A stretch of 64,000 nucleotides of DNA from the human T2T-CHM13v2.0 reference genome, Homo sapiens. Positions 29,995 through 63,965 of the stretch are shown in pieces. Numbering within the stretch: position 1 is the stretch's first letter; every line of letters begins with the position of its first letter. The notes below the pieces were generated by a model, which saw only the letters and a list, made by a program, of their open reading frames with translations, had not been told where the DNA came from and made no database searches. The position numbers and the translations under genes were made by a program. The DNA is taken from assembly GCF_009914755.1 (NCBI RefSeq), contig NC_060936.1. The stretch is one strand, 5' to 3'.

Positions 29995-30953
29995 TGTGGG
30001 CAAAGGATTACCTAGGTGCCGAGGCAACAGACTGAAGGCACAAACTGTTTCAGTATAATAAAGAAAATAGTTAGAATAAGAATAGTCATAATACGAATCA
30101 GATACAGAGCTGATCATGGACAATTATCAATCATTAGTATAAACATTATTAATCATTAACTTTTAATATTACTCTGTTGCATTACTAATATAACCTAGGA
30201 ATAACCTGCGGGTATAGGGTCAGGTGCTGAAGCGACATTGTGAGAAGTGACCTAGAAGGCAAGAGGTGAGCCCTCTGTCATGCCCGCATAAGGGCCGCTT
30301 GAGGGCTCCTTGGTCAAGCGGTAACGCCAGTGTCTGGGAAGGCACCTGTTACTTAGCAGACTGTGGAAGGGAGTCTCCTTTCCTTGGAGGAGTCAGGGAA
30401 CACTCTGCTCCACCAGCTTCCTGTGGGAGGCTGGATATTCTCCAGGCCTGCCCGCAGTCATCCGGAGGCCTAAACCCCTCCCTGTGGTGCTTCAATGGTC
30501 ACACTCCTTGTCCACTTTCATGCTCCTCCTGCACTCCTGGTTCCTCTTTGGAGTTCTTAGTAGATAGCAGAAGAAGAAATAGTGGAAGTCTTAAAGTCTT
30601 TGATCTTTCTTATAAGTGCATAGAAGAAAACGCTGACATTTGCTGCCTTCCCTCTCTGCTTCAGCTACCTAAAAGGGAAGGGCCCCCTGTCGTGTGATCA
30701 CGTGACTTGCTTCACCTTGTCAATCACTTAGAAGATTCACCCTCCTTACCCTGCCCCCTCGTCCTGTATGCAATAAATATCAGCGCACCCAGCCGTTCGG
30801 GGCCACTACCGGTCTCCGCGTGTTGATGGTAGTGGTCCCCCGGGCACAGCTGCTTTCTCTTTATTTTTTTGTCTTGTGTCTTTATTTCTTACAATCTCTC
30901 GTCTCCGCACACGGGGAGAACACCCGCTAAGCCCTGTAGAGCTGGACCTTACA
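29995..30953 (+). mobile_element. Solo LTR13 (ERVK class)
   Basis: Starts TGTGGGCAAAGGATTACCTAGGTGCCGAGG and ends CTGGACCTTACA; AATAAA at 30772; degenerate TSD GCCCGA/GCCCAG. Confidence 0.85.
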
Positions 30954-31466
30954 GCCCAGGGAGCTCATTTCTCGCTGCCTCAGTGTCTCTCTGTGTAAAT
31001 GGGCTATCAATAGGAGTGACCCCATGGCATGACTGTGAAAACTAAATGAGATCACGTAAGGGGCGTAGAGAACCTTTGTGACCCTGAGCCACCGTCTGCC
31101 ACCCGCTGGGGATGCCCTGCTGTGCTGTACTTCTCTCCCTTCTCCCCCTCCCATGCTCTTCATCGCTAGCACTTTCAGCCCCTTGCGGTAGACTTGGATT
31201 AGGCAGGTATGAATACTTCAGTTCGAGAAAAGTGTGAGGCAGGGAAGCTTCCGAGCATCTCTTGCTGAGCAGATATTCTGATCTGAGCCTTTTTTGCCCT
31301 GGGTAGCAGTCTCGTGCCTGGGGTTTGCTGGGCCCGCATTGGCCCCTCCTGAGCCACCTTTCCAGACACCTGTGCAGGCTCCGAAAGGCGCCCGGGCATG
31401 GAGCTCACCTCACTCAACTCTAACTTTTCTGCATTTGTTTAGGGAGCATTTCCTGAAGACGTAGTC

Positions 31467-32750
31467 ATGCAGCACGTCAGCAGCTCCCAGAGCAGCCAGC
31501 GCCATGTCCAGTGGCCTGGGGCCTGCCCCGGCGCGGGCGAGGAGCAGCCAGCGTGCTCCCAGCCGTCCCTGCCCCTCACACTGCCATCCCCCAGCCACCA
31601 ACTACAGCAGCTGATGGTGAGAGGGGGCCCTGCGGGTGGGCAGAACATGAATGTTGACCTGCAGGGCGTGGGCCCTGGGCTCCAGGGAAGCCCACAGGTC
31701 ACGCTGGCCCCACTGCCGCTCCCCAGCCCCACCTCTCCAGGCTTCCAGTTCAGCGCTCAGCCTCGGCGGTTTGAGCATGGGTCTCCATCATACATTCAGG
31801 TCACGTCCCCCTTGTCCCAGCAGGTCCAGACCCAGAGTCCCACGCAGCCCAGTCCGGGGCCGGGGCAGGCCTTGCAGAATGTGCGTGCAGGTGCCCCTGG
31901 CCCTGGGCTGGGCCTCTGCAGCAGCAGCCCTACAGGGGACTTCGTGGATGCCAGCGTGCTGGTGAGGCAGATCAGCTTGAGCCCCTCCAGTGGTGGACAC
32001 TTTGTGTTTCAGGATGGGTCAGGGCTCACCCAGATCGCCCAGGGAGCCCAGGTTCAGCTCCAGCACCCGGGTACGCCCATCACAGTCCGAGAGCGGAGAC
32101 CCTCCCAGCCCCACACACAGTCAGGGGGCACCATCCACCACCTGGGACCCCAGAGCCCTGCAGCCGCGGGTGGGGCCGGCCTGCAGCCCCTGGCCAGCCC
32201 AAGCCACATCACCACGGCTAACTTGCCACCGCAGATCAGCAGCATCATCCAGGGCCAGCTGGTTCAGCAGCAGCAGGTGCTGCAGGGGCCGCCGCTGCCC
32301 CGGCCCCTGGGCTTCGAGAGGACGCCCGGCGTGCTGCTCCCCGGGGCTGGGGGCGCAGCGGGGTTTGGGATGACGTCCCCACCCCCGCCCACCAGCCCTT
32401 CCAGGACTGCCGTGCCCCCAGGCCTTTCCAGCCTCCCACTCACGTCTGTGGGGAACACGGGAATGAAGAAGGTTCCCAAGAAGTTAGAGGAGATTCCCCC
32501 AGCCTCTCCGGAGATGGCACAGATGAGGAAGCAGTGCCTGGACTATCATCACCAGGAGATGCAGGCTCTGAAGGAGGTCTTCAAGGAGTATTTGATTGAA
32601 CTGTTTTTCTTGCAACACTTTCAAGGGAACATGATGGATTTCTTAGCTTTCAAGGAGAGACTGTATGGACCATTACAAGCATATCTTAGGCAGAATGATT
32701 TGGACATTGAAGAAGAGGAAGAGGAGCACTTTGAAGTCATTAATGATGAG
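31467..32750 (+). CDS. EP400P1: EP400NL/EP400P1 coding exon 2 (EP400 N-terminal-like, 428 codons)
   Basis: Acceptor ttgtttag at 31442; ATG in GTCATGC context at 31467; open to donor GAG|GTAACA at 32751. Protein contains EP400 N-terminal motifs ([45 protein letters not shown]). Confidence 0.92.
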
Positions 32751-36012: not shown

Positions 36013-36195
36013 GTAAAGGTTGTGGCCAGAAAGCACGGGCAGCCTGGGACTCCTGTTGCCATAGCAACCCAGCTACCGCCGAGGACTTCTGCGGCTTTTC
36101 CAGCCCAGCAGCAGCCGCTCCAGGTACTTTCTGATGGCTCCACAGTGCAGCTCCCCAGACTTTCCTCACTCGGATTTGAGGACTCGATGTGCTGA
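36013..36195 (+). CDS. EP400P1: EP400NL exon 3 (terminal form ending ...GFEDSMC*; internal donor after 36123)
   Basis: Acceptor ccctctcag at 36012; [23 protein letters not shown] is in phase 0 with exon 2. Donor CAG|GTACTT at 36124, or read-through to TGA at 36195 with ATTAAA at 36319. Total 428+60=488 aa. Confidence 0.85.
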
Positions 36196-36572
36196 GGCAG
36201 GACCCAGAGGGGTCCCAAGAGCCTGTCCTCTTTTGTTCAAAATACATCTTGAAACGTCTTTGTGAAGGCTCTTAGTTTTAATGCATGGATGCTGTTATTT
36301 TTCCCTACTGTTACTGAAATTAAAAAGTGTTTGTCTCTGATCATTAGTTCTGTTAACTTTTCTGCTGGAATGTTTTTCATTTGCATTTGCTTTTCTGATA
36401 TATTTGCAGTTTTCATTGCTTCTGTACGATTGTGGCCTCTTTGGATGTTTCTCTTTTTTTTCCCCCTTTGTCTGCTTTTAAACAAACAGATTTTCTAAAT
36501 TGTTTTCTTGCTATAGGGAGTTGATTTTGTTCTTTAAACATATTCTAGGGGATGAGTAGCAAAAAACAATGA

Positions 36573-36991
<419 letters not shown>

Positions 36992-37024
36992 AACATTTCT
37001 ATATACTTAAAAACATGTTTTAAA

Positions 37025-37727
37025 AATTAGGTTAAAATATACATAAGAGTTCCCATTTTACCCATTTTTAAGTGTACAGTTCCGTGGCATGAAGCACATT
37101 CACATTGCTGTGTGGCCATCACCAGCATCCATCTCCAGAACATTTTCATCTTCTCAGACTGAAACTCTGCCCCTATGAAATGCTAACTCCCCATTCCCCC
37201 TCCCCCAGCCCCTGGCACCCACCACTGTACTGTCTGTCTCTGCGGATTGGAATGCACTTCTCCAGCGACCTAAGTAAGTGGAATCATACAGTATTTGTCC
37301 TTTTCTGTCTGTTGTTGTACTCAGCATCATGTCTTCGGAGTGCATCCACATTGTAGCCTGTAACAGAATTTCCTTCCTTTTGAAGGCTGAGTCACACGCC
37401 ACGGGATGGGTGGACTGCATGTGTTGATCCATCTCTTGGTGGACACTTGGGTTGCTTCCACATTTCAGCTGCTGTGAACAGTGCTGCCCTGAAGACGGGC
37501 GTACAGATATCTCTTCAAGGTCCTGCTTTCAGTTCTCTTGGGCATATACCCAGAGTGGAAGTGCTGGGTCACGCACTAACTCTGTGTTTAACTGTTTAGG
37601 AAAGTCCATGCCATTTTCATAGTAGCTGCACCATTTTCCATCCCACCAGCAAGAACGAGGGTTTTCTTTCTCCACATCCTTGTCAACGCTTGTACATTTT
37701 TTTAATAGTGGCCACCCTAATAGGTGT
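37025..37727 (-). mobile_element. L1MB-like 3' fragment
   Basis: AAGTGGAATCATACAGTATTTGTCCTTT and GGACACTTGGGTTGCTTCCAC motifs. Confidence 0.82.
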
Positions 37728-37761
37728 GCTGTATGCTTTATAATGTAATAGAAAAATATTA

Positions 37762-38100
<339 letters not shown>

Positions 38101-38512
38101 GGACATTTAGAGTTTTAATCTGTTAATCAGCTGGCACTGTTGATGGTTCAAAATTGACTAGTGAGGGAGACAGCATTTGAAAAAACAACTTTAACTCAGA
38201 GTAGCAAATGGCATTGGTGACATATGCAGAATCCCACAGGAAGAGTGTGGAGGGATGCATGGGCTCCTGGGAGCAGGATGCAGGCTGTGGGGTGGCCCAG
38301 TGTGCTGTACCTGTGGCCGGCAGGGCTGGCGCCTCTGGCCTGGCCCCAGCAAGCGTAAGGACCCAGACAGAACACAGGGCTGCTCTACCCTACTCTTCTC
38401 ATGTCATGTTCTTAATGTTGAGAACACAGGTTGAGTTCAGTGTGATTCTCCAAACAAACTGGCTGTGGGCAGTGTCAATTTTCTTTTCTCCAATTTCTTT
38501 ATTTATATATTC

Positions 38513-38797
38513 TTTTGAGACAGAGTCTCCCTCTCTCACCCATGCTGTAGCGTAGTGGTGTGATCTCGGCTCACTGCAATCTCCACCTCCTGGGTTCAAG
38601 CAATTCTCATGTCTCAGCCTCCTGAGTAGCTGAGATTATAGGTATGTGCCACCGTGCCTGGCTAATTTTTATATTTTTAGCAGAGAGGGGGTTTTACCAT
38701 GTTGGCCAGGCTAGTCTCGAACACCTGACCTCAAGTGATCCACCCGCCTCAGCCTCCCAAAGTGCTGGGATTACAGGTGTGAGCCACCACGCCTGGC
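38513..38797 (-). mobile_element. Alu (S)
   Basis: Antisense Alu consensus. Confidence 0.88.
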
Positions 38798-39705
38798 TCT
38801 TTTTTCCAATTTCTTATTGTGAAAAATTTGAATTATTGAAAATGTTGAAAGAGCAGTACAGTGAGTGGTAAACTCACCAGTTGTTAATAGTTTGCCGCAT
38901 GTATGTGTTCTACCTGTCTGTCTATCTCCACACATTTTAAAGTTGTCACAGTCGTGATTGTTTTTGTTTACCCCTGGATCCTTTGTTGTGTATCTCCCAA
39001 CAAGAGCATGTCCCACATGACCACAGCCCTCCGGTCACGCTCGCGGGCATCCACACCTCTCGAGGCATGTTCCTGCCTGGGTCTGCTTTTCTTTCTCTCC
39101 CGACGCTGATGTTTTGAAGGCCAGTTGCTCTGCAGAGGCCATCACAGCCTGGGTGTTCCGTTTCTCACTGCTGACTTAGGCTGAACATTTCTGGCAAGAA
39201 TACAATGGAGGCGGACCTCTGCATGCATTTACTTCTCAACCAAGCCGTGCAGGCCAGTTAGGGAGATGCAGATGCAGGTGGGCTGGGTGCCGTGCGTCTC
39301 ATGGGAGGGTGCCCTCCGGGGACACTCTGGACAGAGGCACTCTCTGTCATGTGCTCAGCTTGGCCCCAGACTGAGGCTTAGCAGTCCTCCAGTTGTTCAC
39401 CGTATGAAGAGCAGGAGAGGATAAACAACTGGACGACTGCTGAGGAGAGGCCAGCAGTAGGGAGTGGAAACCAAAAACTGAGCTTTTACACGAGGCCACA
39501 TGTGCAGCGCCCTGCGCCAGGCTGAAACCCCTGTGTGCAGCGCCCCATGCCGGGCTGAAACCCCTGTGCCGATGCCCCTGGAGAGCAGTCGTGGGGCAGG
39601 GCCTGCCCTTGTTCAGTAAGAGGATGAACCTGGCCGTCTGCCTGACTCAGCCTCGTATCTCCATGATGAGTTAACATATTGGCTCAAAAAAACAAATTTC
39701 CTTTA

Positions 39706-40873
<1,168 letters not shown>

Positions 40874-41898
40874 TAACATTTTGCTTGAGGAAGGGCTCAT
40901 ATACAAGGATATTGAAACAAATGTTGTTTTATATGATAATAATGCCTGAGGATCAACACATATACATTTCCTATCCCAATATCCCAAAAATAGCAATCAG
41001 TGTATTTACAGATGCTGCAGATCCCTCTGAGGAGTTGATTCTGAGGCTGTCCCTGAGGACCCATGCCAGGAGATGTGTCCCGGAAGTGACTGTCACAGAT
41101 GCAGTCCCCCAGATGATGAGGCAAGGCCTGAGGGTCTGCGCTTGTTGGGGGAAAGGTTTATTACAACTTCTCCCAAGCAAACAGATGGAAAGCAATACCT
41201 AGAGCAGCTCCAGTGCTTGTGTGTGGGACACCTCTGCAGGGGCCTTGTGTGGCTTTGTCCTCATTTCAGTTAGAGTTGAGAGTACAACCCATTTTCATGT
41301 ATGGTGGACTTTATAAAACCTAAGTCTGCTTTCTACTCAGTAAACGTTTAGACATTTTTCTTTTCACATTATTCTCCAGTTACTAAGATTTTGTCTGTTG
41401 TCAAATCCACATAAGCCTTCTGTTTTTTGGTGAAGACATATTATAGACTTAGAGTTTTATTTCTTTCCACAAATACTTTGACATTGTCATTTTTGCCTTA
41501 GTTTATACAACTATTTTTCTAAGCTCTAGATTTAGTTTTCACATGGATACCTCTGGTGTTTTAATTCTGGCTTCCGCTTTTGGTTAGCAGTTGTGACTTA
41601 GATTTCTTATCTACAAACTACTTCTGAAGCCTGGTTCTGTTGTGCTGCCTTTAGCAAGTGGTACACAGAAAAGTACTAAACGATGAAAAGATTATTTTTG
41701 TTCCTTTCTGTCAAATTCAAAGGCTAATATGGAGGGTTTTTTGAGTTTATTTATGATCACTGGCCAATAGCTCTAAGCTGTGATATCATGTTCTTTGTCA
41801 TAGAAATTGAAGAGACAGTGGAGAAATACTTATTTTAAAATCAGTGTGATATAAATTAACACACATTTCTACTTCCCATAATTTTTGTCTCCTAATAG

Positions 41899-41970
41899 CA
41901 AATACATATGGGGACTCCAGTACCTGGAGATGTGAATTCCATAAAAATGGAAGCATCTAAGAGGCAGTGA
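41899..41970 (+). CDS. EP400P1: EP400NL exon 4 coding part (QIHMGTPVPGDVNSIKMEASKRQ*); exon runs to 41986
   Basis: Acceptor cctaatag at 41898, in-frame TGA at 41968-41970, donor CAG|GTATGT at 41987. Weakly similar to the recalled EP400 segment ...FKRQQAMPSTG. Confidence 0.7.
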   Translation, partial: QIHMGTPVPGDVNSIKMEASKRQ

Positions 41971-42637
41971 ACACTGGCGCCCACAGGTATGTAGCAGTCA
42001 CCCAGCATGAAGCCAGCCTGCAAACAAAAAGGAAACCATGCAGGCCTTCTAGCAGTGTATTTTCCAACTTTTTTCATTTTAAGTAAGTCAACAAATAGCT
42101 ACCAAATGGCTTCTGTGGGCTCACGGGGTCACCCCTGTGCCTCCTCTCAGTTCTTGCTTGGAGCGAAGTGACTTTACACTCAGCCATCATTTTGGCCACT
42201 TAGTGCCTTGAGCTGGAGGCATGGGAGCGGGCCTGGGGAGGCCACGGGCACTCATGTAGTGGCAGGGCCTGGGCCTCAGCTCTGTGCCCAGGAGCTTCCC
42301 CATGCCGGCCAGGCACATCAGAATCTGGCATGTGAGTGTCCCCGAACTCACTGTCCAGCCACCCCCCTTGACAGCAGGATCCCTGGGAACAGGCCACTTG
42401 GCAGTGGGCATGGACTCAGAGCAAAGCAAGATGGGTGCCTCAAGAGCTTGGTCCCACCCAGGCCTGAGACTGCCTCCCTTCCTGGTGAGGATCAGAGAGA
42501 GGATGTCCTGCCCGCAGTGCGTTCTGTGCTATTTCCGTGTTCTGCACCAGGGACAGTGTAGCATGAACTTTGAAGGTGGAACCTGGCTCACTGTGCTGTG
42601 ATTGGATTTGATGTCACAGATTCTCCTTTGATGTCAG

Positions 42638-42733
42638 AGGCCTCACCTACAAGTGGGCCATCCTGGGATGGGTTTACAGCACCTGGAGGTGACATCAGGT
42701 GTTCCTCTCCAGCAGTTAATGCCAACAGCACAA
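42638..42733 (+). pseudogene. EP400P1: Decayed EP400-like exon (RPHLQVGHPGMGLQHLEVTSGVPLQQLMPTAQ)
   Basis: Matches recalled EP400 RPRLEVGHQG...GVPLQQLMPTAQ; no GT donor after CAA. Confidence 0.8.
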
Positions 42734-43364
42734 AGCATCTGTGTGCCGAAGAACCTGGCAGGTACTAGTCCAGGAGTAGGCTGTGGGAGCCGGGAGCCAA
42801 CAGCTCTGAAGCTCTGAGCTCTGAGGCTTTGAAGCTACCGCACACTCTGTCATCTGTTGATTGTTCCTGGGCAGAGTGGGCCCTTGCATCTGTTTATTGA
42901 CCCAGACCTGGGCACAGGCTGGTGGTGTCTGTGCAGACTCACAGTTTCCCCTACAGGTGATTAAAAACCAAACTATCAAGAGTTTTCATGTATTTTCCTA
43001 ACTTTTTCCAAGTAGAAGCATTCTCTTTTTCTCTATGATGATCTCAGGCTGTCTTCACATGCACTGTTGTTTGCTCTGTGGGGCCCGTGCTGTGACGCTT
43101 GGAGTGCGGGCTGCAGTGTGGTCAGCCGTGCCCTCGCTGGCTCTGGGGATGTGGCCAATGTGGTGTCACCTCACCCCTCTCAGTTGTCTCATCTGTAAAA
43201 TGGGAGCAACAGCGATAATTACACTTCTCAAGTGTGTTCTGGGGACTAACACTGTTACGTCTGTAAGGCGCTGAGCACAGCACCATGTTGTAAGCACGTG
43301 TCAGTTAATACCACACTAAAAAATTAATATTCTATAGATTTAATGGCAAGCTTTAATTTTTTTT

Positions 43365-44030
43365 AACATATCCAACTTTTTCGCTATAAACTTATGGGGT
43401 ACAGGAGCAGTTTTGTTGCATGGACATACTTCGTGGTGGCAAAGTCTGGGCTTTCAGTGCAGCCGTTATGGGAATAATGTAATCACACCCACTGAGCATC
43501 TACCCTCCCCTCACCCTGTACCCTTCCAAGTTTCCAGTGTCTCTCATTCCACACATCTGTGTGGACGTGTGAGTTAGCTCCCGCTTACGGGTGAGAATGT
43601 GCGGTGTTTGTCTTTCTGTGTCCGAGTTGTTTCGCTTAGGATGATGGCCTCTGTTTGCATCCATGTTGCTGCAAAGGACAGTTTCATTCTTTTTTATGGC
43701 TGGACAGTATTCCATTGTGTATATATGCACCACATCTTCTTATCCAACTGTCTGTTGATGGGCACTTAGGTTGATTCCGTGTCTTTGCTGTTGTGAACTG
43801 TGTTGCAGTAAACATGCGAGCGCAGGTATGACTTCAAGAGAATGATTTATTTCCCTCTGGATACACACCCAGGAGTGGGACTACTGGATTGGACGGTAGT
43901 TGTATTTTTAGTTTTCGGAGGAACCTCCATTCTATTTTCCATAGAGGCTATGCTAATTTACACTCCCCCCAACAGTGTGCAGTGTTCCCTGTTCTCCACG
44001 TCCTCGCCAGCATCTACTGTTTTTTGTCTT
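43365..44030 (-). mobile_element. L1MA-like 3' fragment
   Basis: GTGAGAATGTGCGGTGTTTG and CCATGTTGCTGCAAAGGACA motifs. Confidence 0.85.
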
Positions 44031-44883
44031 TCTTTAATTTTTGCAAGTTTGCATTGCTTATAGAGTACACCGTAGTTTTCAAGGAAAACACACCAGCAAA
44101 TACCGGTACTAGGATATGCATACGTACGTGCGCATCAGTGTGTGCCTAGAGACCCGGGAAACCGGTCCATGATGATAAGTCACATCGATGCGCTCCTTCA
44201 GCAGATATTTACAGAGACTGGCGAGTGGCGAGGCCCGAGTACGCAGAGATGCGTGACCGCCACCCCCTGCCTTTGCCCGGACCGGCTCCCGACTGCTCCC
44301 TTCTCTTTATTCAGGTCTTGGCTCCACGGCCCACCTTGGAGAGGCCTTTGCCGCCCCGGCGCCCGCCCTGCGCCGTCATGTTTGCTCTCCCTGGTCCTCA
44401 GAGCGCCCACTCCCGTCAGGTCGCCTGTGTCTGTGCCTCGCTGGGGAAGGCAGGGCCTGGCGTGCCCTGCGCTCCTCTCTGCCCTCGGGACAGGAGGTGG
44501 TCAGGGAAGGTGGTCCCGTGTCCTCAAGGCGGAGTCCCTCGCAGATGGTGCTGAGGTGGAGAAGCTGCGCTGCTGCTAGAACAGAGTGGGCGCTGCTGAC
44601 CGCGCCCGCCTGAGGAGGGTTGGTGGCAGAGGCTGCGCCACGTGCACGCCCCGAGGCAGGTGGTCGTCGAGGCCTTCAGGCTGCAGCTGCTGGGCAGGGT
44701 GTGAGCCAGGAGCGTTGCAGCTGCGGGGCGGGCAGGTGGGCCGGGCCTGGGGAGTCACCATCCAGGAGCACGGAGCCCCCGGAGCAGAGGGCACGGCCAT
44801 CGCCTTCTCCCAGCGTGGGGGCTGTGAGGCGAGTTGTGCGGTTGCAGATCACCAGAGGAGGAAAAGCGCGCCCAGAGGCGGGA

Positions 44884-45223
44884 GCCCTCCAATCACAGGG
44901 CAGTGCAGAGGCTGGCACCCTCCAGTCACAGGCCAGCGCAGGGGAGGGCGCCCTCCAGTCACAGGCTGACGCCCTCCAATCACAGGGCAGCTAGAGGCAG
45001 TCACCCTCCAATCACAGTCCAGCACAGGGGAGGGCACCCTCCAGTCACAGGCCAGCGCAGGGCAGGGCGCCCTCCAGTCACAGGCCGGCGCCCTCCAATC
45101 AAAGGCCAGCACAGAGGCGGGCACCCTCCAGTCACAGGCCAACGCCCTCCAATCACAGAGCAGCCAGGGGCTGGCGCCCTCCAATCACAGGGCAGCCAGA
45201 GGCTGGCACCCTCCAATCACAGG
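44884..45223. repeat. Degenerate minisatellite with core CCCTCCA(A/G)TCACAG, ~12 units
   Basis: 7 CCAATCA and 5 CCAGTCA cores at ~21-33-bp spacing. Confidence 0.9.
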
Positions 45224-45465
45224 CCGTGGCATTGGCCGCCCTCATCTGCTGCTGAGAGTTCTGTCGAGTAGGAGGAAGGAGGTCCCTTCAGGACCATGGG
45301 CCTGAAAAGGAATGATGGGGCCAAATTGATAGTTTAGCCACTGCCTAGATTCTAGAGATTTCCATCTTTTTTGGTTGTAAAATGTAAAATCAAATCTTTT
45401 ATATTGGCTATGTTTAGGACTGGAACAACTACTGTAAAAATGATTTTTTTAAAACCTGTGCTTGA

Positions 45466-45745
45466 AGGTTGCGGCGGCTCAGCCTGGAATCCCAGCACTT
45501 TGGGAGGCCGAGGTGGGCGGATCACCTGAGGTCAGGAGTTTGAGACCAGCCTGGCCAACATGCAGAAATCCCGTCTCTACAAAACATACAAAAATTAGCC
45601 GGGCGTGATGGCGCACGCCTGTGATCCCAGCTACTCGGGAGGCTGAGGCACAAGGATCGCTTTGAGCGCAGGGGTCAAGGCTGCAGAGACAAGGCTGTGA
45701 TTGCTCCACTGCATGCCAGCCTGGGTGACGGGGCGAGCCCTTATT
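45466..45745 (+). mobile_element. Alu (J-like)
   Basis: Diverged sense Alu. Confidence 0.85.
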
Positions 45746-45814
45746 TCGAAAATAATAATAACGATTCAAACGTTACTCCTTGGAGTTCTTCCGGTTGGCT
45801 TTTGTTTTACCATT

Positions 45815-46195
45815 TGAAGCCACAGCTCAGTGGCATGAAGCACGTTCACGTTGCTGTGCAGCTGTCACCTGCGTCCACCTACAGAAGATTTCCACCCTCC
45901 CAAACAGAAACGCTGCCCCCGTGAAACACGGATGCCCCGCCCCTCCCCTGGGCAGCCCCGCTCCGCTTGCTGTCCCCATGGCTTTGAGTGCTCTAGGGAC
46001 CCCATGTCAGTGGGACAGACAGGATCTGCCTGCCCCTCTGTGCCTGGCTCGTGTCACTCAGCGGAAGGTCCTCGGGGCTCATACACGCGGTGGCACGTGG
46101 CAGGATTTCCTTCCTCGCTAAGGCCTTATTCTCTTTACGCATCATCTGTCAATGGACACCTGGGACATTATTCGGTTTGGGGAGCAGTGGGCTCC
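45815..46195 (-). mobile_element. GC-shifted L1MB-like 3' fragment
   Basis: Alignable by eye to the 37080-37460 L1 copy (GTGGCATGAAGCAC.TTCAC.TTGCTGTG...). Confidence 0.65.
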
Positions 46196-46272
46196 CTAAT
46201 TTCTTAAGGTCGCGTCTCTGTTTTGCTGTCAGATACTGGGAGAGCTGGGCTTGACTTTCTTTGCGTTTGCGG

Positions 46273-46620
46273 GAGGAATGCCCCCCACGCCGCACGCCGC
46301 GCAGCTCGCTGGGCAGAGGCAGAGGCAGAGGCAGCAGCAGTACGACCCCTCCACGGGGCCTCCCGTGCAGAACGCCTCCAGCTTGCACACGCCGGGAGGC
46401 TGCCCCAGCCGGGGTCCGCGCTGCAGCGTCTTTGCAGGTCTCCCAGCAGCAGGCGACAGAGCCACAAGCACAGCTCTCAGTCCAGGGAAGGACCCAGCAG
46501 CCAATCGCAGCGCCGCCACCTTTCCTGCCAGGCCGGCGCTCGCCACCAGGCAGGCTGTTTAGCTTGCGCTCCACCTCCCCACCCAGGAGCAGGCAGCTCC
46601 CCAGGCCCGCCAGCCTCTGC
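46273..46620 (+). pseudogene. EP400P1: Decayed EP400-like exon (GGMPPTPHAAQLAGQRQ...QYDPSTGPPVQNA), frameshifted
   Basis: EP400-like peptides are spread over three frames; the acceptor AG appears as GG at 46271-46272. End approximate. Confidence 0.85.
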
Positions 46621-46909
46621 CTGCGGCACCATCCCAGGTACCCAAAGGGGCTGCCCTCCAAACCCGGGCACGGGATGAGTCCTGACCCACATGGGCTGCA
46701 GTACCAGAATATTCTCGGTGGTCTGTGCTTCCCCAGGAATCTGTGTTTCCAGTGAGTGTAAAGGACTAGGTCTAACTTGTTCAATGTTTTTCCCCTACTA
46801 AGCACTTCTGATGAAATGGTGAGGGCCGTAAGTCAGCGTTCCGGGTAAAGGTTTTAGTGGAATTGAGAACCGAATGCGTTAATGACGGGTTGCTTGCTGC
46901 CCTTGAGGG

Positions 46910-47503
<594 letters not shown>

Positions 47504-47857
47504 GTGAGAGAGCTCAGTTATCTGTGAAAGAAGTTGCTTTTGCTACAAGCTGTTTAAATTAGAAGTTGAAATGTTTCTCAATATAATATGGCAGACGGTA
47601 AAGGCATCTGAAAAACTGGCCATGGCTGCTTCTCTAGTGATTCTTTGGCACCAGCCTACTCAGATTCTAGAGCAGGGGGCATCTGGGGTGTGTGCACAGC
47701 ATCTGGGAACTGCAGGTTCCCCCACCAGCACCCAGTGTGGGCTGTACTGGGGACCGCCGGGAAACCGCCTTCCCTCATTCAGGTCCTTCATCTGAGCCTG
47801 TGACAAAGGGGCTGGAGTCTCTGTCTTCACAGTTGATGGGCTGCTCCTGTCTTTCAG

Positions 47858-48039
47858 GAGAACCAGGTGCATCAGCGCATTGCGGAGCTGAGGAAAGCAG
47901 GTCTGTGGTCCCAGAGGCGTCTGCTGAAGCTGCAGGAGGCCCACGACCCAAGTCCCACTGGGACTATCTGCTGGAGGAGATGCAGTGGATGGCCACAGAC
48001 TTTGCCCAGGAGAGGTGGAAGGTGGCCTCTGTGAAGAAG
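47858..48039 (+). pseudogene. EP400P1: EP400 HSA-domain exon remnant, 1-nt frameshift
   Basis: ctttcag|ENQVHQRIAELRKAGLWSQRRLLKLQEA / PRPKSHWDYLLEEMQWMATDFAQERWKVASVKK|GTGGGT; frameshift near 47940. Confidence 0.92.
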
Positions 48040-48190
48040 GTGGGTTGGAATAGTACTTTGTGGAAATCACATCGTGAAAGAGAATTGAAGAAGTAATTAT
48101 ATTATGTAAAAGAAAATTTCTAAATTTAATATGGCCAATTTAATGTTTGAGTTTTCATCACTAACTCTAAGACTTTACCTGACTGTAAGT

Positions 48191-48490
48191 CTTTTTTTTT
48201 TTTTTTGAGACGGAGTCTCACTCTGTCACTCAAGCTGGAGTTCAGTGGCTCAATCTCGGCTCACTACAACTTCCGCCTCCCAGGTTAAATGGACTCTCCT
48301 GCCTCAGCCTCCTGAGTAGTGAGGATTACCGGCACCTGCCACCATGCCCAGCTAATTTTTTGTATTTTTAGTAGAGATGGGGTTTTGCCATGTTGGCCAG
48401 GCTGATCTCGAACTTCTGACCTCAAAGTGATCCATCTGCCTCGGCCTCCCAAAGTGCTGGGATTACAGGCATGACCCACCACCCCCGGCC
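48191..48490 (-). mobile_element. Alu (S)
   Basis: Antisense Alu consensus. Confidence 0.9.
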
Positions 48491-48877
48491 ATGTGGACAA
48501 TTTCATACCAACTGGCATTTCATGTCTGGCCATGGCACCGTCTAAATTGAGAAGGATTATCTCGAATTATGTTTGCATAGAAAGCGCTGTGATAATTGTG
48601 GTTCATGTTTCATCTGGACTTTATTGCCCATTAACATAAGTGTCTTTGACTGACAGTAAAGGGATATTTTCTAGGGGAATATTCATTTTACTTTTTATTA
48701 TTGAATATTATTAGAATTGTTGCTTGAAGCAGTATCATGAATGGATACTAAAAATGGAAAAATAGACTTTCTTTGGAATTCTCCAGAATTAAATATGTAT
48801 ATCTAGTAAAAAACAAGATGTTTCCATATTACTGTGTGCGTGGAGACCCTCACAGACAATGTGGCGATTGTCTTCAG

Positions 48878-49017
48878 ATGGTCAGAGCTGTGGCCCGGCA
48901 GCTGCAGGACAGGACGCGCAGGGAGGCCGGGGCCAGGAGGGAGGAGCCGAGCAGGCTGAGGCAGACGTCACCTGTACTACCAGAGAAATCGAGCGTCCCT
49001 GGTCTAGTACTGCGCAG
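48878..49017 (+). pseudogene. EP400P1: EP400 HSA-domain second exon remnant, frameshifted
   Basis: tcttcag|MVRAVARQ...EEPSRLRQ / TREIERPWSSTAQ|GTAAAC versus recalled LVRTVVRH...EEQSRLRR...AREIECFWSNIEQ. Confidence 0.85.
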
Positions 49018-49123
49018 GTAAACACACGTTTCCTCTACAATTTGCCCTCAAGTTTTCACTCGGGAGCTAATGATTTTATATTTTAATTCATGATTTTCTT
49101 TTAGATCGTAGATTATCTTTTAG

Positions 49124-49202
49124 ATAGTAGAAATAAAGCTGCAAATTGAATTTCAAGAGAAACAAAAAAAGACATTAAATTTGAATAAATATTCAAAAAG
49201 AG
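49124..49202 (+). pseudogene. EP400P1: EP400-like exon remnant (IVEIKLQIEFQEKQKKTLNLNKYSKR)
   Basis: AG/GT intact; similar to recalled EP400 VVEIKLRVELEEKRKKALNLQKVSRR. Confidence 0.85.
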
Positions 49203-49362
49203 GTAACCAAGTAAGTTAATATAGTGTACTTATTCAAAGAGTCGTCATGTTATAGCCCACTGCCAAGGTGAACTGTGAGAATTCATTGTTATGCTCCTGT
49301 GCTTTGTGACATGGCATAATGAGGCTGAAGCCCTGAAAACATTATGAATTATGCCTTTGTAG

Positions 49363-51925: not shown

Positions 51926-52631
51926 TTTAATCACCTACTCAAAGTGGAAAACCAACACATGCCCCTAGGAACTCACAGTCCTGGTGGTGAGTATCGGAAA
52001 GCACAGGGAAAGGAGTGCCTGACCTGGGAGAACGGAGGTCATGCTGAGTCTTCAGAGCAAATAGGAAGTTCCTGGATGGTTACGGGGGAGGGAAAGTCAC
52101 GGCAGCAGGAGTAGCGCACACATCACATGCATGTGACAGGGAGCAGTGCAGTGCATTCAGGAAGCTCGGGGCTGTGTGGTGAGGACTCAGAACGCAGGGA
52201 GAAGGCGGCACAGGCCCAGAGGATGAGGGGCTGTGGGTCAGAGAATGGTGGGAACCTCCCCAAATCCCAAGTTCCCTGAGGCCAGCCCAGGGCCAGCCTT
52301 GTGTGCGGGTGTTTCTGAGGATGGCGCGTCTCTGCATGAGCCTTGTGTGTCATGTGCAAGAGTGTGTGTTGTGTCCTATGTGTGGGAGGGAGCTGCCGGC
52401 GGTGCATTTGTGGGGGCCGAGGGCCAGTCAGGATGTGCCATTAGAACCACGTGGCTCCTGAAAGCAAGCCCGTGATACCAGAGATACCTGGTAGTAGCAT
52501 CTATATCTGATTAGCTGTACATCTCTTGACAGTCTTTTTAAAAGCATGAGTGAAGAAAGACATAAACTTCCGGATTTGCGTAAGTGAGCTTGCCAACTAA
52601 GGAAACACATGAGTATTATCTGTATCTTCAG

Positions 52632-52846
52632 GAGCACTTGATTAGACTCCAGAAACAGAAACTGCAGCTGCTCCCACCACCCCCACCACCACAGGCCCTG
52701 CCCGGGGCACAGCCAACCACACAAGTGCAAGTGCAGCCGTCACCCGCCTACCACAGCAGAGCCCCCAGCTCACCACAGTCACGGCCCCGAGACCCAGAGC
52801 CCTGTTGATGGGCACCACCATGGCCAACCTCCAGGTAGCCCGGCTT
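52632..52846 (+). pseudogene. EP400P1: EP400 C-terminal-region exon remnant (EHLIRLQKQKLQ...GTTMANLQVARL)
   Basis: cttcag acceptor and CTT|GTAAGC donor; matches recalled EP400 EHLIKMQKQKLQ...GTTVANLQVARL; frameshifted. Confidence 0.85.
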
Positions 52847-52869
52847 GTAAGCGTTCGGTCATCATTGCT

Positions 52870-53195
<326 letters not shown>

Positions 53196-53291
53196 TAATA
53201 CCTGATGGGGGCTGATGATTTCAACCCCTGAGGAAGGATAACGCAGTGTGACAGGGCAGGGCATATGTGATCCTTGTTTCTTGTTATTTAG

Positions 53292-53485
53292 ACTCGAGTT
53301 TCCACCTCCCACCTGCAAGGCCCAAGACTGACGTCAGCGCTGACGTACCAGATGGCCCAGGTTGCTGTGGCCACGCCCCCTGTGGTGTCTGTCCTGGCAG
53401 TTGTGGTGCTGTCAGCCAGGGTCACAGTGCTTCCATCAACGCAACGGGATCAGTGTTGTGATAAGGCAGCTGCAAAAAGCGGCAG
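53292..53485 (+). pseudogene. EP400P1: EP400 C-terminal-region exon remnant (TRVSTSHLQ...PPVVSV...GISVVIRQLQKAA)
   Basis: atttag acceptor and CAG|GTAGGC donor; matches recalled TRVPTSQLQ...PPVVSVP...GISVAIGQPQKAAG. Confidence 0.82.
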
Positions 53486-53600
53486 GTAGGCAGCCACCTT
53501 CGCCTCACCAAACTCGAAACAACTCACTTGAGTGAGTTGCATCAAACCTTTCTAAATTTCTCATTCTAGAAGTTGCTGAGTTGTTCTGCCATGTGTTAAC

Positions 53601-54218
53601 TTTTTTTTCTTATCAGTAAAATCTTTTATTTGGTTTATATTTCAAATGTAATTTAAAAAGTCTATAAGACAGGAAATTCGATAATATGAAAGCAGGGAGA
53701 AACTAAGTCGCACCATTTAGCTAAGCTCAGGGACAACGTTCATTTATAATAAATCAAACATTTGATTTTTTTCATGCCATCAGTTGTACTTAAACATATC
53801 CATCATATTTCAGTTGCAAAAGATGGTGAAGAACTCAAGCTGAAGAGGTGTCTGCTGAATTTTGTTGCTTCGGTAGGAGCTTTTCACCATCAGTTTTTAG
53901 AAAGTACGCATGACTCTCCTGTTGATATCTCTCTTGATTTGGCAAAGAGTACAAGGAGGACCGCAAAGGGTTGCCATATAATCATCACAAATAGATCCAG
54001 GGATGCCATATCACGTCCTGTAGAGAGTCCTCATTGCGACGCTTGCTCCACACAGCATTCATTCATATCAGCTGCAACTTGACACCCAAGGCACGGGAAA
54101 CAAAACGTGCCACAGAGGCAGACTCCACAGTCGCTGAAGCAGTCACACATGCCTGTCTGCCAGTTGGAGTTCTGGGGTGCCGGACCGAGACCGACTCCCA
54201 CAACGACCATCGGCGCCT
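53601..54218 (-). pseudogene. Processed pseudogene of PLAC8
   Basis: Minus strand reads PAPQNSNWQTGMCDCFSDCGVCLCGTFCFPCLGCQVAADMNECC...YGIPGSICDDYMATLC...TLCQIKRDINRRVMRTF* with no introns. AATAAA (TTTATT at 53625), poly-A (T run at 53601-53608), TSD CATGTGTTAA at 53590 and 54219. Confidence 0.92.
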
Positions 54219-54513
54219 CATGTGTTAATTTTTTAAGACACCTAATTAGAGCCTCATTCCTTGCACCTCCCCCTTTTAAGCAAATGGAGCAGAGGCCGCT
54301 GTACCCCCCAGCAAGAGCTGCTTGCCTCTATTAAGGGGAGATGCGGCATGGGCGTTATTTCTCCTTTTTAAGGCAGCAGGCATTTCCTTTACCATCATTG
54401 CCAGGCAGGTTACTCCTCTGAGCAAATCAGCGGCAATGATGAGTGTGAGATGCAGATCCTTGTCCATGCGCACTTCGTGTGTCCTGCGTGCTGTCTCTCT
54501 GCTGTCACCACAG

Positions 54514-54632
54514 GGGGCCAGATTGGCTGTGCAGCCTCTGCACATGCAGCAGCTCCGAAAGCTGAAACACCACCAGCAGTAAAAAGCTGTGCAGCCCTCA
54601 GCCGCTCCAGGCCTGCTGCTGCACAGCGGAAG
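54514..54632 (+). pseudogene. EP400P1: EP400 C-terminal-region exon remnant (VQPLHMQQLRKLK...*KAVQP...AAAQRK)
   Basis: ccacag acceptor, AAG|GTAAGT donor, in-frame TAA at 54580; matches recalled AQPVHMQQLLKLK...KAIQP...PAAVQQK. Confidence 0.82.
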
Positions 54633-54929
54633 GTAAGTGGCCGCTGGGCTTTGTGGGAGCTGCATCTCACACTCATCATTCAGGGCCCTTAGGCCAGAGT
54701 GGGGCTGGACTGAGCCCCTTCCTTTTGGAGGCAGCCGTTAAACAGAGCTGAGGAGGCTCCCTGCATGGGCTTCTGGAGGTGGGGAGGGGCCGAGTGTCAA
54801 GGAACTCTGACCCTGTAATTTTTACATATATTTGCTCTCTAGGGGAGAGCTTGCTTTGCTGTATAGTATAATTTTTCAAAAATATTTACAATGATTTCTG
54901 TGAAAAATCACTCTGACAAGGACTTCTAT

Positions 54930-61132: not shown

Positions 61133-62057
61133 TTGCTCTGCCTTCCTGACAGTGCAGACCTCGCTCCTGGAGGGCCAGACCCGTCCGACTCGCCCTAGAG
61201 TCTCTCAGCAACTAGAATGCACAGGGCCATGCGCAACACTCATGTCTGGAAAGGTGAAGGAGGGGTTGGCCGCCCCTCCATGGCTCTGCCGTCTTCCAGC
61301 TCTTTCTCTAAGGCCTGTCCTTTGAGTTCATAGATGAATACCCAGCAAGTCACAGTTCAGGCCTAGCAGCCAACCGGCCAACAGCCAAGAGCAGCCTACC
61401 ACTGCAGCCCGCCAGGAGAGTGGCCTAGCCTCCGTGGCCCACCGTCCGCGGCCCACCAGGAAAGCACTGTTTCTGCCATCCCCCATGTCTCAGGTTCCCA
61501 AGGCCACGGGGACCGCGCCAGTGCAGGCCTACATGCAGGTAGGGGCAGCTCACACTGTGCCCCTCCCACATGGCCACACGGGGTCAGGCCAGTGGCTGCT
61601 GTGCTCCTTGCTGTCATTATCCTACTTTCAAGACCTACCCCCTTCCTCCGTAGAGGTAAGGAGACGGGAATGTGTGGACAGCTCAGGCCCACACTGCACA
61701 TTGAAGGTCCCTCCTCCCTATTCTGTGCTCCGTGAAGGTCGCAAAGAGCCCTCGAGGCCCAGCCACGGACGCCTGCCTGAGCCCTCAGCAGCTGGTGGCC
61801 CAGCAGGTGAGTGCCCACCATCCTGCCGCCGGCATGGCCCCGGCACACCCCTCAGCCCCCACCCCACCCCCTCTCGCCTGGTCCCCACCGTCACCAACAG
61901 CTCTGTCCTCCTCTTGCCCCTCCCACCTCTTCCTTTGTGTGCTCAGCTGCTGTCCCTCCCGCTCCTCTCCCCTCTCACATCTCGAAACTCTGGGGAAGGA
62001 TCCAGGCCCCCGTGCCACTGTGGAAGGGCCGGGACGGGCCTGCCCAATGCACTGCAG

Positions 62058-63965
62058 ATGCCCCGGTGCCCACTCCTCCTACCTCCCCGAGTGTGCCCAC
62101 GGTGCCCGCTCCTCCCACCTCCCGAGTGTGCCCACGGTGCCCGCTCCTCCCACCTCCCGAGTGTGCCCACGGTGCCCACTCCTCCCACCTCCCCGAGTGT
62201 GCCCACGGTGCCCCTCCTCCCACCTCCCGAGTGTGCCCACGGTGCCCGCTCCTCCCACCTCCCCGAGTGTGCCCACGGTGCCCGCTCCTCCCACCTCCCC
62301 GAGTGTGCCCACGGTGCCCACTCCTCCCACCTCCCGAGTGTGCCCACGGTGCCCGCTCCTCCCACCTCCCGAGTGTGCCCCGGTGCCCGCTCCTCCCACC
62401 TCCCCGAGTGTGCCCACGGTGCCCGCTACCTCCCACCTCCCGAGTGTGCCCACGGTGCCCACTCCTCCCACCTCTCCGAGTGTGCCCACGGTGCCCACTC
62501 CTCCCACCTCCCCGAGTGTGCCCACGGTGCCCACTCCTCCCACCTCCCGAGTGTGCCCACGGTGCCCGCTCCTCCCACCTCCCGAGTGTGCCCACGGTGC
62601 CCGCTCCTCCCACCTCCCGAGTATGCCCCGGTGCCCGCTCCTCCCACCTCCCGAGTGTGCCCACGGTGCCCACTCCTCCCACCTCCCCGAGTGTGCCCAC
62701 GGTGCCCGCTACCTCCCACCTCCCGAGTGTGCCCACGGTGCCCGCTCCTCCCACCTCCCGAGTGTGCCCCGGTGCCCGCTCCTCCCACCTCCCGAGTGTG
62801 CCCACGGTGCCCGCTACCTCCCACCTCCCCGAGTGTGCCCACGGTGCCCGCTACCTCCCACCTCCCGAGTGTGCCCACGGTGCCCGCTACCTCCCACCTC
62901 CCGAGTGTGCCCACGGTGCCCACTCCTCCCACCTCCCCGAGTGTGCCCACGGTGCCCGCTCCTCCCACCTCCCGAGTGTGCCCCGGTGCCCGCTCCTCCC
63001 ACCTCCCGAGTGTGCCCACGGTGCCCGCTCCTCCCACCTCCCGAGTGTGCCCACGGTGCCCGCTCCTCCCACCTCCCCGAGTGTGCCCACGGTGCCCGCT
63101 CCTCCCACCTCCCCGAGTGTGCCCACGGTGCCCGCTCCTCCCACCTCCCCGAGTGTGCCCACGGTGCCCGCTCCTCCCACCTCCCGAGTGTGCCCCGGTG
63201 CCCGCTCCTCCCACCTCCCGAGTGTGCCCCGGTGCCCGCTCCTCCCACCTCCCGAGTGTGCCCCGGTGCCCGCTCCTCCCACCTCCCGAGTGTGCCCACG
63301 GTGCCCGCTCCTCCCACCTCCCGAGTGTGCCCCGGTGCCCGCTCCTCCCACCTCCCGAGTGTGCCCCGGTGCCCGCTCCTCCCACCTCCCGAGTGTGCCC
63401 ACGGTGCCCGCTCCTCCCACCTCCCCGAGTGTGCCCACGGTGCCCGCTCCTCCCACCTCCCGAGTGTGCCCCGGTGCCCGCTCCTCCCACCTCCCCGAGT
63501 GTGCCCACGGTGCCCGCTCCTCCCACCTCCCCGAGTGTGCCCACGGTGCCCGCTCCTCCCACCTCCCCGAGTGTGCCCACGGTGCCCGCTCCTCCCACCT
63601 CCCCGAGTGTGCCCACGGTGCCCGCTCCTCCCACCTCCCGAGTGTGCCCCGGTGCCCGCTCCTCCCACCTCCCGAGTGTGCCCCGGTGCCCGCTCCTCCC
63701 ACCTCCCCGAGTGTGCCCACGGTGCCCGCTCCTCCCACCTCCCCGAGTGTGCCCACGGTGCCCGCTCCTCCCACCTCCCGAGTGTGCCCACGGTGCCCGC
63801 TCCTCCCACCTCCCCGAGTGTGCCCACGGTGCCCGCTACCTCCCACCTCCTGAGTGTGCCCACGGTGCCCGCTCCTCCCACCTCCCGAGTGTGCCCACGG
63901 TGCCCGCTCCTCCCACCTCCCCGAGTGTGCCCACGGTGCCCGCTCCTCCCACCTCCCGAGTGTGT
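62058..63965. repeat. GC-rich VNTR, 34-36-bp unit, ~54 copies
   Basis: Unit GAGTGTGCCCACGGTGCCCGCTCCTCCCACCTCCC with +C, -A and CTAC variants. Confidence 0.98.

What the first reader, a model, noticed from the sequence alone, without database searches (positions are those of the whole stretch)
31701..32654. Probable gene-conversion tract: ~950 bp of exon 2 near-identical to EP400 inside a diverged paralog
Against the recalled EP400 protein, [10 protein letters not shown]...MMDFLAFK (~318 aa) appears nearly identical, even in low-complexity P/G/Q-rich stretches. The first ~78 aa, the acidic tail and all downstream exons are clearly diverged. Such sharp boundaries suggest interlocus gene conversion keeping the paralog's protein in step with EP400. 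It would also cause read mis-mapping and ambiguous peptide or antibody assignment between the two genes.
Basis: partly seen in the sequence, partly recalled or inferred. Interest (0 to 1): 0.75.

Follow-up and report, generated by a model that had tools for sequence, protein, structure and literature searches.

The report
EP400 exon recopied into old paralog
A 951-base piece of the human EP400P1 (EP400NL) gene is 99.7% identical to the chromatin-remodeller gene EP400 145 kb away although the two genes are otherwise long diverged, most likely because gene conversion has recopied it again and again in several mammal lineages, which would keep the paralog's BRD8-binding segment matched to EP400's and would confuse reads, guides and peptides aimed at either gene.

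Summary
Confirmed and extended. Window 31704-32654 differs from EP400's first large coding exon at 3 of 951 bases; 1 of 236 synonymous sites differs against 61 of 120 in flanking coding sequence (p 1e-33). Introns do not align. EP400P1 is an old whole-gene copy lacking the ATPase region; its exons 3-5 group by paralog and place the duplication before the elephant-human split, whereas the tract groups by species (human/capuchin sites 8:0 inside, 0:26 outside). That is recurrent interlocus gene conversion; the latest human event is probably a few million years old. The tract covers most of the published BRD8-binding fragment by which EP400NL competes with EP400. Selection for that match is unproven: the dead HSA exon, an alternative intron and predicted disordered sequence are homogenised too. 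No paper in the searched library reports conversion here; the low mappability is already tabulated. New member of a known kind.

The parts
31443..32750 (+). Large coding exon of EP400P1/EP400NL, paralog of EP400's first large coding exon; ATG at 31467; absent from the RefSeq transcript listed in the task
   Evidence: Open frame, acceptor AG before 31443 and donor GT after 32750; Pfam EP400_N, E 5e-194
31467..31703 (+). Diverged 5' flank (residues 1-79); carries the paralog-specific internal splice donor at 31617
   Evidence: 38 of 77 residues differ from EP400; dS about 0.84, alignment-dependent; GT donor absent at the matching EP400 position; database isoforms jump from this point
31704..32654 (+). 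Main conversion tract, residues 80-396 (EP400 91-407)
   Evidence: 3 of 951 bases differ; 1 of 236 synonymous sites; groups by species
31704..32012 (+). Part of the tract that is intron in the shorter isoform (acceptors before 31821/31824 and before 32013); 31704-31820 is intron in both spliced forms
   Evidence: 0 of 79 synonymous sites differ; splice sites; isoform proteins P0006, P0025
32508..32618 (+). Only confidently predicted helix of the exon product (residues 348-384), inside the tract; candidate BRD8 contact (inferred, not mapped)
   Evidence: AlphaFold2 on 32 sequences: mean pLDDT 44.5, block means 67-86 at residues 341-380, 335 of 428 residues under 50
32655..32669 (+). Unconverted 15-base patch (paralog-type KERLYGP against EP400 KKKHYAP)
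   Evidence: 6 differences; paralog-type in 11 of 16 primate species, EP400-type in 5
32670..32719 (+). Second short identical island
   Evidence: 50 of 50 bases identical
36013..36123 (+). Exon 3 paralog, unconverted
   Evidence: 83% identity, dS 0.46; 6 paralog-grouping and 0 species-grouping sites
41899..41986 (+). Exon 4 paralog with an in-frame stop; keeps the ancestral amniote form that placental EP400 has lost: dates the duplication
   Evidence: 67% to chicken EP400; scores 75-95 against opossum, birds, reptiles and mouse-lemur paralog, 29-41 against 9 placental EP400
42636..42733 (+). Exon 5 remnant
   Evidence: 74 of 98 bases identical
46256..46624 (+). Exon 6 remnant with indels
   Evidence: 284 of 352 aligned bases identical
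47858..48051 (+). Second, older conversion island: HSA-domain exon plus 12 intron bases; 1-base and 3-base deletions break the HSA frame
   Evidence: 95% over 201 columns; 3 of 38 synonymous sites, p 1e-6 against flanks; shares three simian-EP400 residues that pig and lynx EP400 lack
48878..49017 (+). Exon after HSA, unconverted
   Evidence: dS about 1.3
52621..54635 (+). Remnants of three C-terminal EP400 exons (52621-52854, 53287-53487, 54532-54635): the paralog is a whole-gene copy that lacks the ATPase/SANT middle
   Evidence: 69-79% to EP400's 3' exons; chicken EP400 hits jump from residue 871 to 2688

Best explanation
The tract is a near-perfect copy of EP400 sequence inside an otherwise diverged paralog, most likely made by recurrent ectopic (interlocus) gene conversion between the two direct-oriented copies 145 kb apart. 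Steps: (1) shown by trees on limited data: EP400 was duplicated before the placental radiation and the second copy lacks the ATPase region; (2) shown: introns and most exons have drifted apart; (3) inferred: the 1.3-kb exon, the longest homologous block and still coding in both genes, stayed similar enough to pair during recombinational repair, and each conversion reset its similarity, a self-sustaining loop whose edges stop where mismatches begin; (4) shown at protein level: the two copies changed together in apes, New World monkeys and probably horse; (5) inferred: flow is mostly EP400 to paralog; (6) from papers: the segment binds BRD8 and lets EP400NL form TINTIN apart from NuA4/TIP60, so conversion keeps the competitor's binding surface matched. 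Selection on the EP400NL protein likely keeps the loop alive by keeping the exon intact, but does not set the tract's extent.
For: 1 of 236 synonymous sites differ against 61 of 120 pooled flanks, Fisher p 1e-33. Human/capuchin four-sequence test: 8 species-grouping and 0 paralog-grouping sites in the tract; 0 and 26 outside (p 6e-8). Tract tree: human pair 97/81, simian clade of both genes 100/100, horse copy among laurasiatherian EP400; paralog monophyly rejected, p-AU 7e-6. Exon 3-5 tree: 9 placental EP400 100/99, two paralogs 95/88; duplication after the afrotherian split rejected, p-AU 1.5e-4. The tract is not ultraconserved: 117 of 318 columns vary among 9 placental EP400. A valine shared by both human copies is alanine in bonobo, gorilla and orangutan paralogs. 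Direction: at the 3' patch the paralog takes the state that all 8 EP400-type rows printed share. DNA rather than cDNA template: 12 identical intron bases after the HSA exon, 1-8 at six other junctions. BRD8 pull-down with EP400 194-446 and EP400NL 51-297 (10.1101/2021.08.11.456009, passages); EP400 residue 194 starts at window 32013's counterpart.
Against: Only two same-species pairs (human, capuchin); other species have one copy each, and all non-human data are database protein models that can be chimeric in exactly this region. No non-human DNA, so no cross-species dS. The third protein search listed only birds and unnamed rows among 120 of 855 hits. The dating segment is 105 columns with two paralog rows, one long. 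Orthology of the horse and golden-mole copies is inferred, not shown by synteny. No match to a recalled PRDM9 motif in the tract (0 of 15 window matches) and no GC3 excess over the exon's own 5' flank (0.76 against 0.75-0.81).
Confidence: 0.9

Rival explanations
1. Conversion as above, but its extent and persistence are actively selected: alleles that re-match the BRD8-binding surface are favoured, and conversions over the paralog's splice donor, patch or HSA exon are purged.
For: Tract covers 214 of the 253 residues of the BRD8-binding fragment and the only confident helix; this exon stays open across primates while exons 4, 6 and HSA are broken; the 5' edge spares the paralog-specific donor; deleting residues 246-260 of the 419-residue isoform, inside the tract by my numbering, removes coactivation (10.1101/2021.05.30.446361, passages).
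Against: A frameshifted exon (HSA) and alternative-intron sequence are homogenised too; most of the tract is predicted disordered; the 3' patch is EP400-type in 5 of 16 primate species, so its loss seems tolerated; all four tested deletions kept BRD8 binding; Old World monkey paralogs carry private changes in the tract.
Confidence: 0.3
2. Purifying selection alone keeps both copies alike.
For: The segment is functional in both proteins.
Against: Synonymous identity, joint change of both copies between species, 117 of 318 variable columns.
Confidence: 0.01
3. A recent duplication in humans or primates with fast decay of the flanks, or independent recent duplications in each lineage.
For: The tract alone looks a few million years old (0.1-12 My at an assumed 1e-9 per site per year). 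The horse exon is EP400-like from end to end (7 of 89 and 15 of 311 differences to pig EP400), so a separate horse duplication is not excluded.
Against: Introns do not align; flank dS 0.46-1.29; exon 4 of the human and mouse-lemur paralogs keeps a form older than placental EP400; the horse copy has the short ancestral-type acidic tail and a decayed HSA exon.
Confidence: 0.04
4. RNA- or cDNA-templated repair copies spliced EP400 sequence into the paralog, which would explain why both islands are exonic.
For: Both islands are confined to exons or nearly so.
Against: Identity runs 12 bases into the intron after the HSA exon; tract edges lie inside the exon, not at junctions; only exons retain homology, which explains the pattern without RNA.
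Confidence: 0.04
5. Assembly artefact in the reference.
For: Three unnamed-source proteins are mosaics of the two genes (P0002, P0005, P0097), so chimeras can arise here.
Against: Independent human proteins and PDB chains match each copy; the low mappability is also listed on another reference build.
Confidence: 0.01

Closest known systems
SIGLEC11/SIGLEC16 paired receptors (PMC5701461, abstract read); SIGLEC5/SIGLEC14 (search listing only)
   Same: Neighbouring paralogs whose ligand-binding exon is homogenised by repeated conversion in each primate lineage while the rest diverges; the partner was long called a pseudogene.
   Different: Here a nuclear chromatin-remodelling scaffold and its truncated competitor, not immune receptors; copies 145 kb apart in direct orientation; duplication older than the placental radiation; no intronic homology left.
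EP400NL / human TINTIN complex (10.1101/2021.08.11.456009; 10.1101/2021.05.30.446361; passages)
   Same: This is the gene; both papers note the high similarity to EP400's N-terminus and show protein function.
   Different: The word 'conversion' does not occur in the first, 'duplication' not in the second; neither passage set dates the gene, notes synonymous identity, the HSA island or the C-terminal remnants.
Interlocus gene conversion in human segmental duplications (PMC10172114, PMC4467073; listings and supplements searched)
   Same: Same presumed mechanism.
   Different: Those concern long, young, high-identity duplications; this is a sub-kilobase island in an ancient pair. EP400 was not found in the supplements that could be read (one file unreadable).

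Membership tests
Interlocus gene conversion / concerted evolution | Tract far more similar than flanks at synonymous sites | tested here: met
   1 of 236 against 61 of 120, p 1e-33
Interlocus gene conversion / concerted evolution | Clustered identity with sharp edges beyond chance | tested here: met
   Run of 384; 0 of 20,000 permutations reach it; windows
Interlocus gene conversion / concerted evolution | Paralogs group by species in the tract and by gene outside it | tested here: met
   Protein level; two same-species pairs only
Interlocus gene conversion / concerted evolution | Duplication older than the tract's similarity | tested here: met
   Exon 3-5 tree and AU tests, exon 4 scores
Interlocus gene conversion / concerted evolution | Non-reciprocal transfer with a known donor | tested here: inconclusive
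   EP400-to-paralog at the 3' patch; direction of shared simian changes unresolved; relative-rate counts show no consistent excess in capuchin EP400
Interlocus gene conversion / concerted evolution | Shared polymorphisms or converted haplotypes within a population | not testable with these tools
   No population data; mosaic unnamed proteins could be haplotypes or chimeras
Interlocus gene conversion / concerted evolution | GC-biased signature (common, not required) | tested here: not met
   GC3 0.76 in tract, 0.75-0.81 in 5' flank, 0.41-0.79 in six other EP400 exons
Paired/competitor paralogs kept matched by selected conversion (SIGLEC11/16 type) | Converted part encodes the shared binding surface | tested here: met
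   Overlap with the published BRD8-binding fragment; exact contact residues unmapped
Paired/competitor paralogs kept matched by selected conversion (SIGLEC11/16 type) | Conversion limited to functional sequence | tested here: not met
   Frameshifted HSA exon and alternative intron are homogenised too
Paired/competitor paralogs kept matched by selected conversion (SIGLEC11/16 type) | Matched binding shown across species | not testable with these tools
   Only human pull-down in the passages read
EP400_N family (PF15790) | Pfam score above cut-off | tested here: met
   646 bits against 27

The most novel reading that the evidence does not exclude
EP400NL is a self-updating decoy: for about 100 million years gene conversion has kept its BRD8-binding exon identical to that of the essential remodeller EP400, selection favouring the match so that the TINTIN-to-TIP60 ratio is set by expression alone, while occasional back-conversion has fed paralog-derived changes into EP400 itself (including its HSA exon) and may still move damaging alleles between the genes in people.
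Probability: 0.25. Interest if true: 0.78.

Novelty: new member of a known kind. Interest (0 to 1): 0.56.

Why it matters
Evolution: a case of exon-limited concerted evolution that outlasted all intronic homology, in a chromatin scaffold rather than an immune or tandem-array family, with a dead exon beside it as a built-in neutral control. Annotation: it supports coding status for a gene that RefSeq lists as a pseudogene and whose main coding exon is missing from the listed transcript (PeptideAtlas audits also call it likely coding), and warns that conservation scores for this exon partly reflect copying. Practice: 221 of 309 NGG sites and 898 of 1315 21-mers in EP400's exon have a perfect match in the paralog, and 4 of 11 to 6 of 13 tryptic peptides of the paralog forms are shared, so knock-out, knock-down, variant-calling and proteomic results for EP400 may be mixed with EP400NL; paired cuts or unequal crossover would be expected to delete or duplicate 145 kb (inferred; the three patient CNVs in the two papers read do not have that span).

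Tried and rejected
Third protein search meant to fetch full-length mammalian EP400 listed only birds and unnamed rows (120 of 855 shown), so Old World monkey, lemur and horse EP400 are missing. Relative-rate counts for back-flow into EP400 (12 species/outgroup combinations): no consistent excess in the tract; 5' flank 8:1, 8:1, 8:0 against mouse but not against pig or lynx. GC3 excess: none. Recalled PRDM9 13-mer: 15 matches in the window, none in the tract. Literature: EP400 + gene conversion 3 papers by word start, 13 by any match, none on this locus by title, and the one read had no link; EP400 + concerted evolution 0; EP400NL 28, EP400P1 12; EP400/paralog/duplication/mammals/homogenization nothing relevant among 15 listed of 550. 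Supplements of PMC10172114, PMC4467073, PMC12800076: no EP400. Whether opossum P0022 is EP400 or the paralog could not be decided (82/84). No complex was predicted: binding is already shown by experiment and no BRD8 sequence was at hand. One search stopped with an error after seven of nine HSA rows; only those are used.

Full report
Observation. The finding lies in a 1.3-kb exon of EP400P1 (EP400NL), window 31443-32750, with an open frame from ATG 31467. Searching the own genome gives one other copy, in EP400, 144,761 bases upstream on the same strand. Between 31704 and 32654 the copies differ at 3 of 951 bases. The 5' flank is about 70% identical, and intron sequence on both sides does not align. 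At the 3' end a 15-base patch with 6 differences is followed by 50 identical bases and then the diverged acidic tail.

Not selection alone. By codon counting 1 of 236 synonymous sites differs in the tract (dS 0.004). The 5' flank gives about 0.84 (alignment-dependent), exon 3 0.46, the exon after HSA 1.29; pooled with the tail, 61 of 120 differ (Fisher p 1e-33). The longest identical run, 384 bases, was not reached in 20,000 permutations. The segment is not ultraconserved: 117 of 318 columns vary among 9 placental EP400 proteins.

The gene is old and was a whole-gene copy. Homologues of EP400 exons 3-7, HSA and the two following exons lie in order at 36013-49205, then remnants of C-terminal exons at 52621-54635 and weakly 61371-61544; chicken EP400 hits jump from residue 871 to 2688, so the ATPase middle is missing. 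Exon 4 at 41899-41986 resembles chicken, opossum, reptile and mouse-lemur-paralog sequence (scores 75-95) more than 9 placental EP400 (29-41; frog 35). A tree of exons 3-5 (16 rows, 105 columns) gives placental EP400 including elephant 100/99 and the two paralogs 95/88; human-with-human is rejected (p-AU 2e-4), as is duplication after the afrotherian split (1.5e-4). The figure of about 100 million years for that split is recalled. Labels for truncated database models (rabbit, mouse, elephant as EP400; golden mole and horse as paralog) are my inference from exon 4, tail and HSA state; species names are the database's.

The tract follows species, not genes. For EP400 residues 194-407 (27 of 45 aligned rows; unnamed, redundant, partial and amphibian rows left out) the human pair is sister (97/81), both genes of simians form one clade (100/100), the horse copy sits among laurasiatherian EP400 and the golden-mole copy with elephant (99/97). 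With 17 rows, paralog monophyly is rejected (p-AU 7e-6; primate paralogs only 1e-10). For human and capuchin, the only same-species pairs, 8 sites group by species and 0 by gene inside the tract; outside it 0 and 26. A valine in both human copies is alanine in bonobo, gorilla and orangutan paralogs, which points to conversion after the human-chimpanzee split; one silent difference gives 0.1-12 million years at an assumed rate. The 3' patch is paralog-type in 11 of 16 primate species including mouse lemur and EP400-type in gorilla, orangutan, mangabey, capuchin and marmoset: at least four overwrites on the recalled primate tree, if those models are not chimeras. The diverged N-terminus is simian; in horse the whole exon is EP400-like.

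A second island. The HSA exon at 47858-48051 is 95% identical, 3 of 38 synonymous sites (p 1e-6 against flanks), with a 1-base and a 3-base deletion. Human and vervet paralogs share three residues with simian EP400 that pig and lynx EP400 lack; the horse paralog does not. Vervet has seven further differences to the human copy's one (p 0.07), suggesting but not showing a later ape event. Identity extends 12 bases into the intron (1-8 at six other junctions), which favours a DNA template.

Function. In passages of 10.1101/2021.08.11.456009 BRD8 binds EP400 194-446 and EP400NL 51-297, and EP400NL forms TINTIN by competing for BRD8; structural papers agree that EP400's unresolved N-terminus anchors TINTIN (PMC11330486, PMC11995519, passages). 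The tract covers 214 of those 253 EP400 residues. A predicted model is mostly low-confidence, with one confident helix at 348-384 inside the tract. The paralog has its own splice donor at 31617 and uses acceptors inside the tract, so 31704-32012 can be intron and is still identical at 79 of 79 synonymous sites. So conversion matches the binding segment, but it also homogenises sequence that needs no match. I favour a self-sustaining homology island kept open by selection on the EP400NL protein (0.9 for recurrent conversion), with direct selection on the match at about 0.3.

What is known. EP400NL protein and function are published; PeptideAtlas audits call it likely coding (PMC12679747, PMC11601488, passages). 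Low short-read mappability of this EP400 exon is a row in a supplement of PMC13076882. Ten searches of the open library turned up no report of conversion, age or whole-gene origin for this pair; subscription papers are mostly missing, and supplements of bioRxiv preprints (for instance the alignment figure of the TINTIN paper) and one file of PMC10172114 could not be seen. The closest analogue is SIGLEC11/16 (PMC5701461, abstract).

Verdict. Interest 0.56; 0.78 if selected matching and back-flow are shown.

Noticed in passing
window 47858-48051: Frameshifted HSA-domain exon 95% identical to EP400: second, older conversion island; in frame but more diverged in vervet.
   Followed up: yes
window 52621-54635 and 61371-61544: Remnants of EP400's C-terminal exons: the 'N-terminal-like' gene is a whole-gene duplicate lacking the ATPase middle.
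   Followed up: partly
window 41899-41986: Exon 4 paralog keeps the ancestral amniote sequence while placental EP400 changed markedly in this exon (long branch 0.24): possible episode of EP400 change after duplication.
   Followed up: partly
window 31443-32750: The main coding exon is not among the exons of the RefSeq transcript given in the task, so variants here would be labelled intronic in a pseudogene.
   Followed up: partly
P0002, P0005, P0097: Unnamed-source proteins that are mosaics of EP400 and paralog alleles; real converted haplotypes or short-read assembly chimeras.
   Followed up: no
P0041/P0048 and P0047: One frog species has two different EP400 N-terminal proteins in the database: possibly an independent amphibian duplication.
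   Followed up: no
window 62059-63964: 36-base tandem repeat, 54 copies, 96% matches, just before DDX51.
   Followed up: no
window 30000-30954: Interspersed repeat of about 950 bases with many 89-92% copies genome-wide and one 97% copy on the same contig at 132306002-132306826; family not identified.
   Followed up: no
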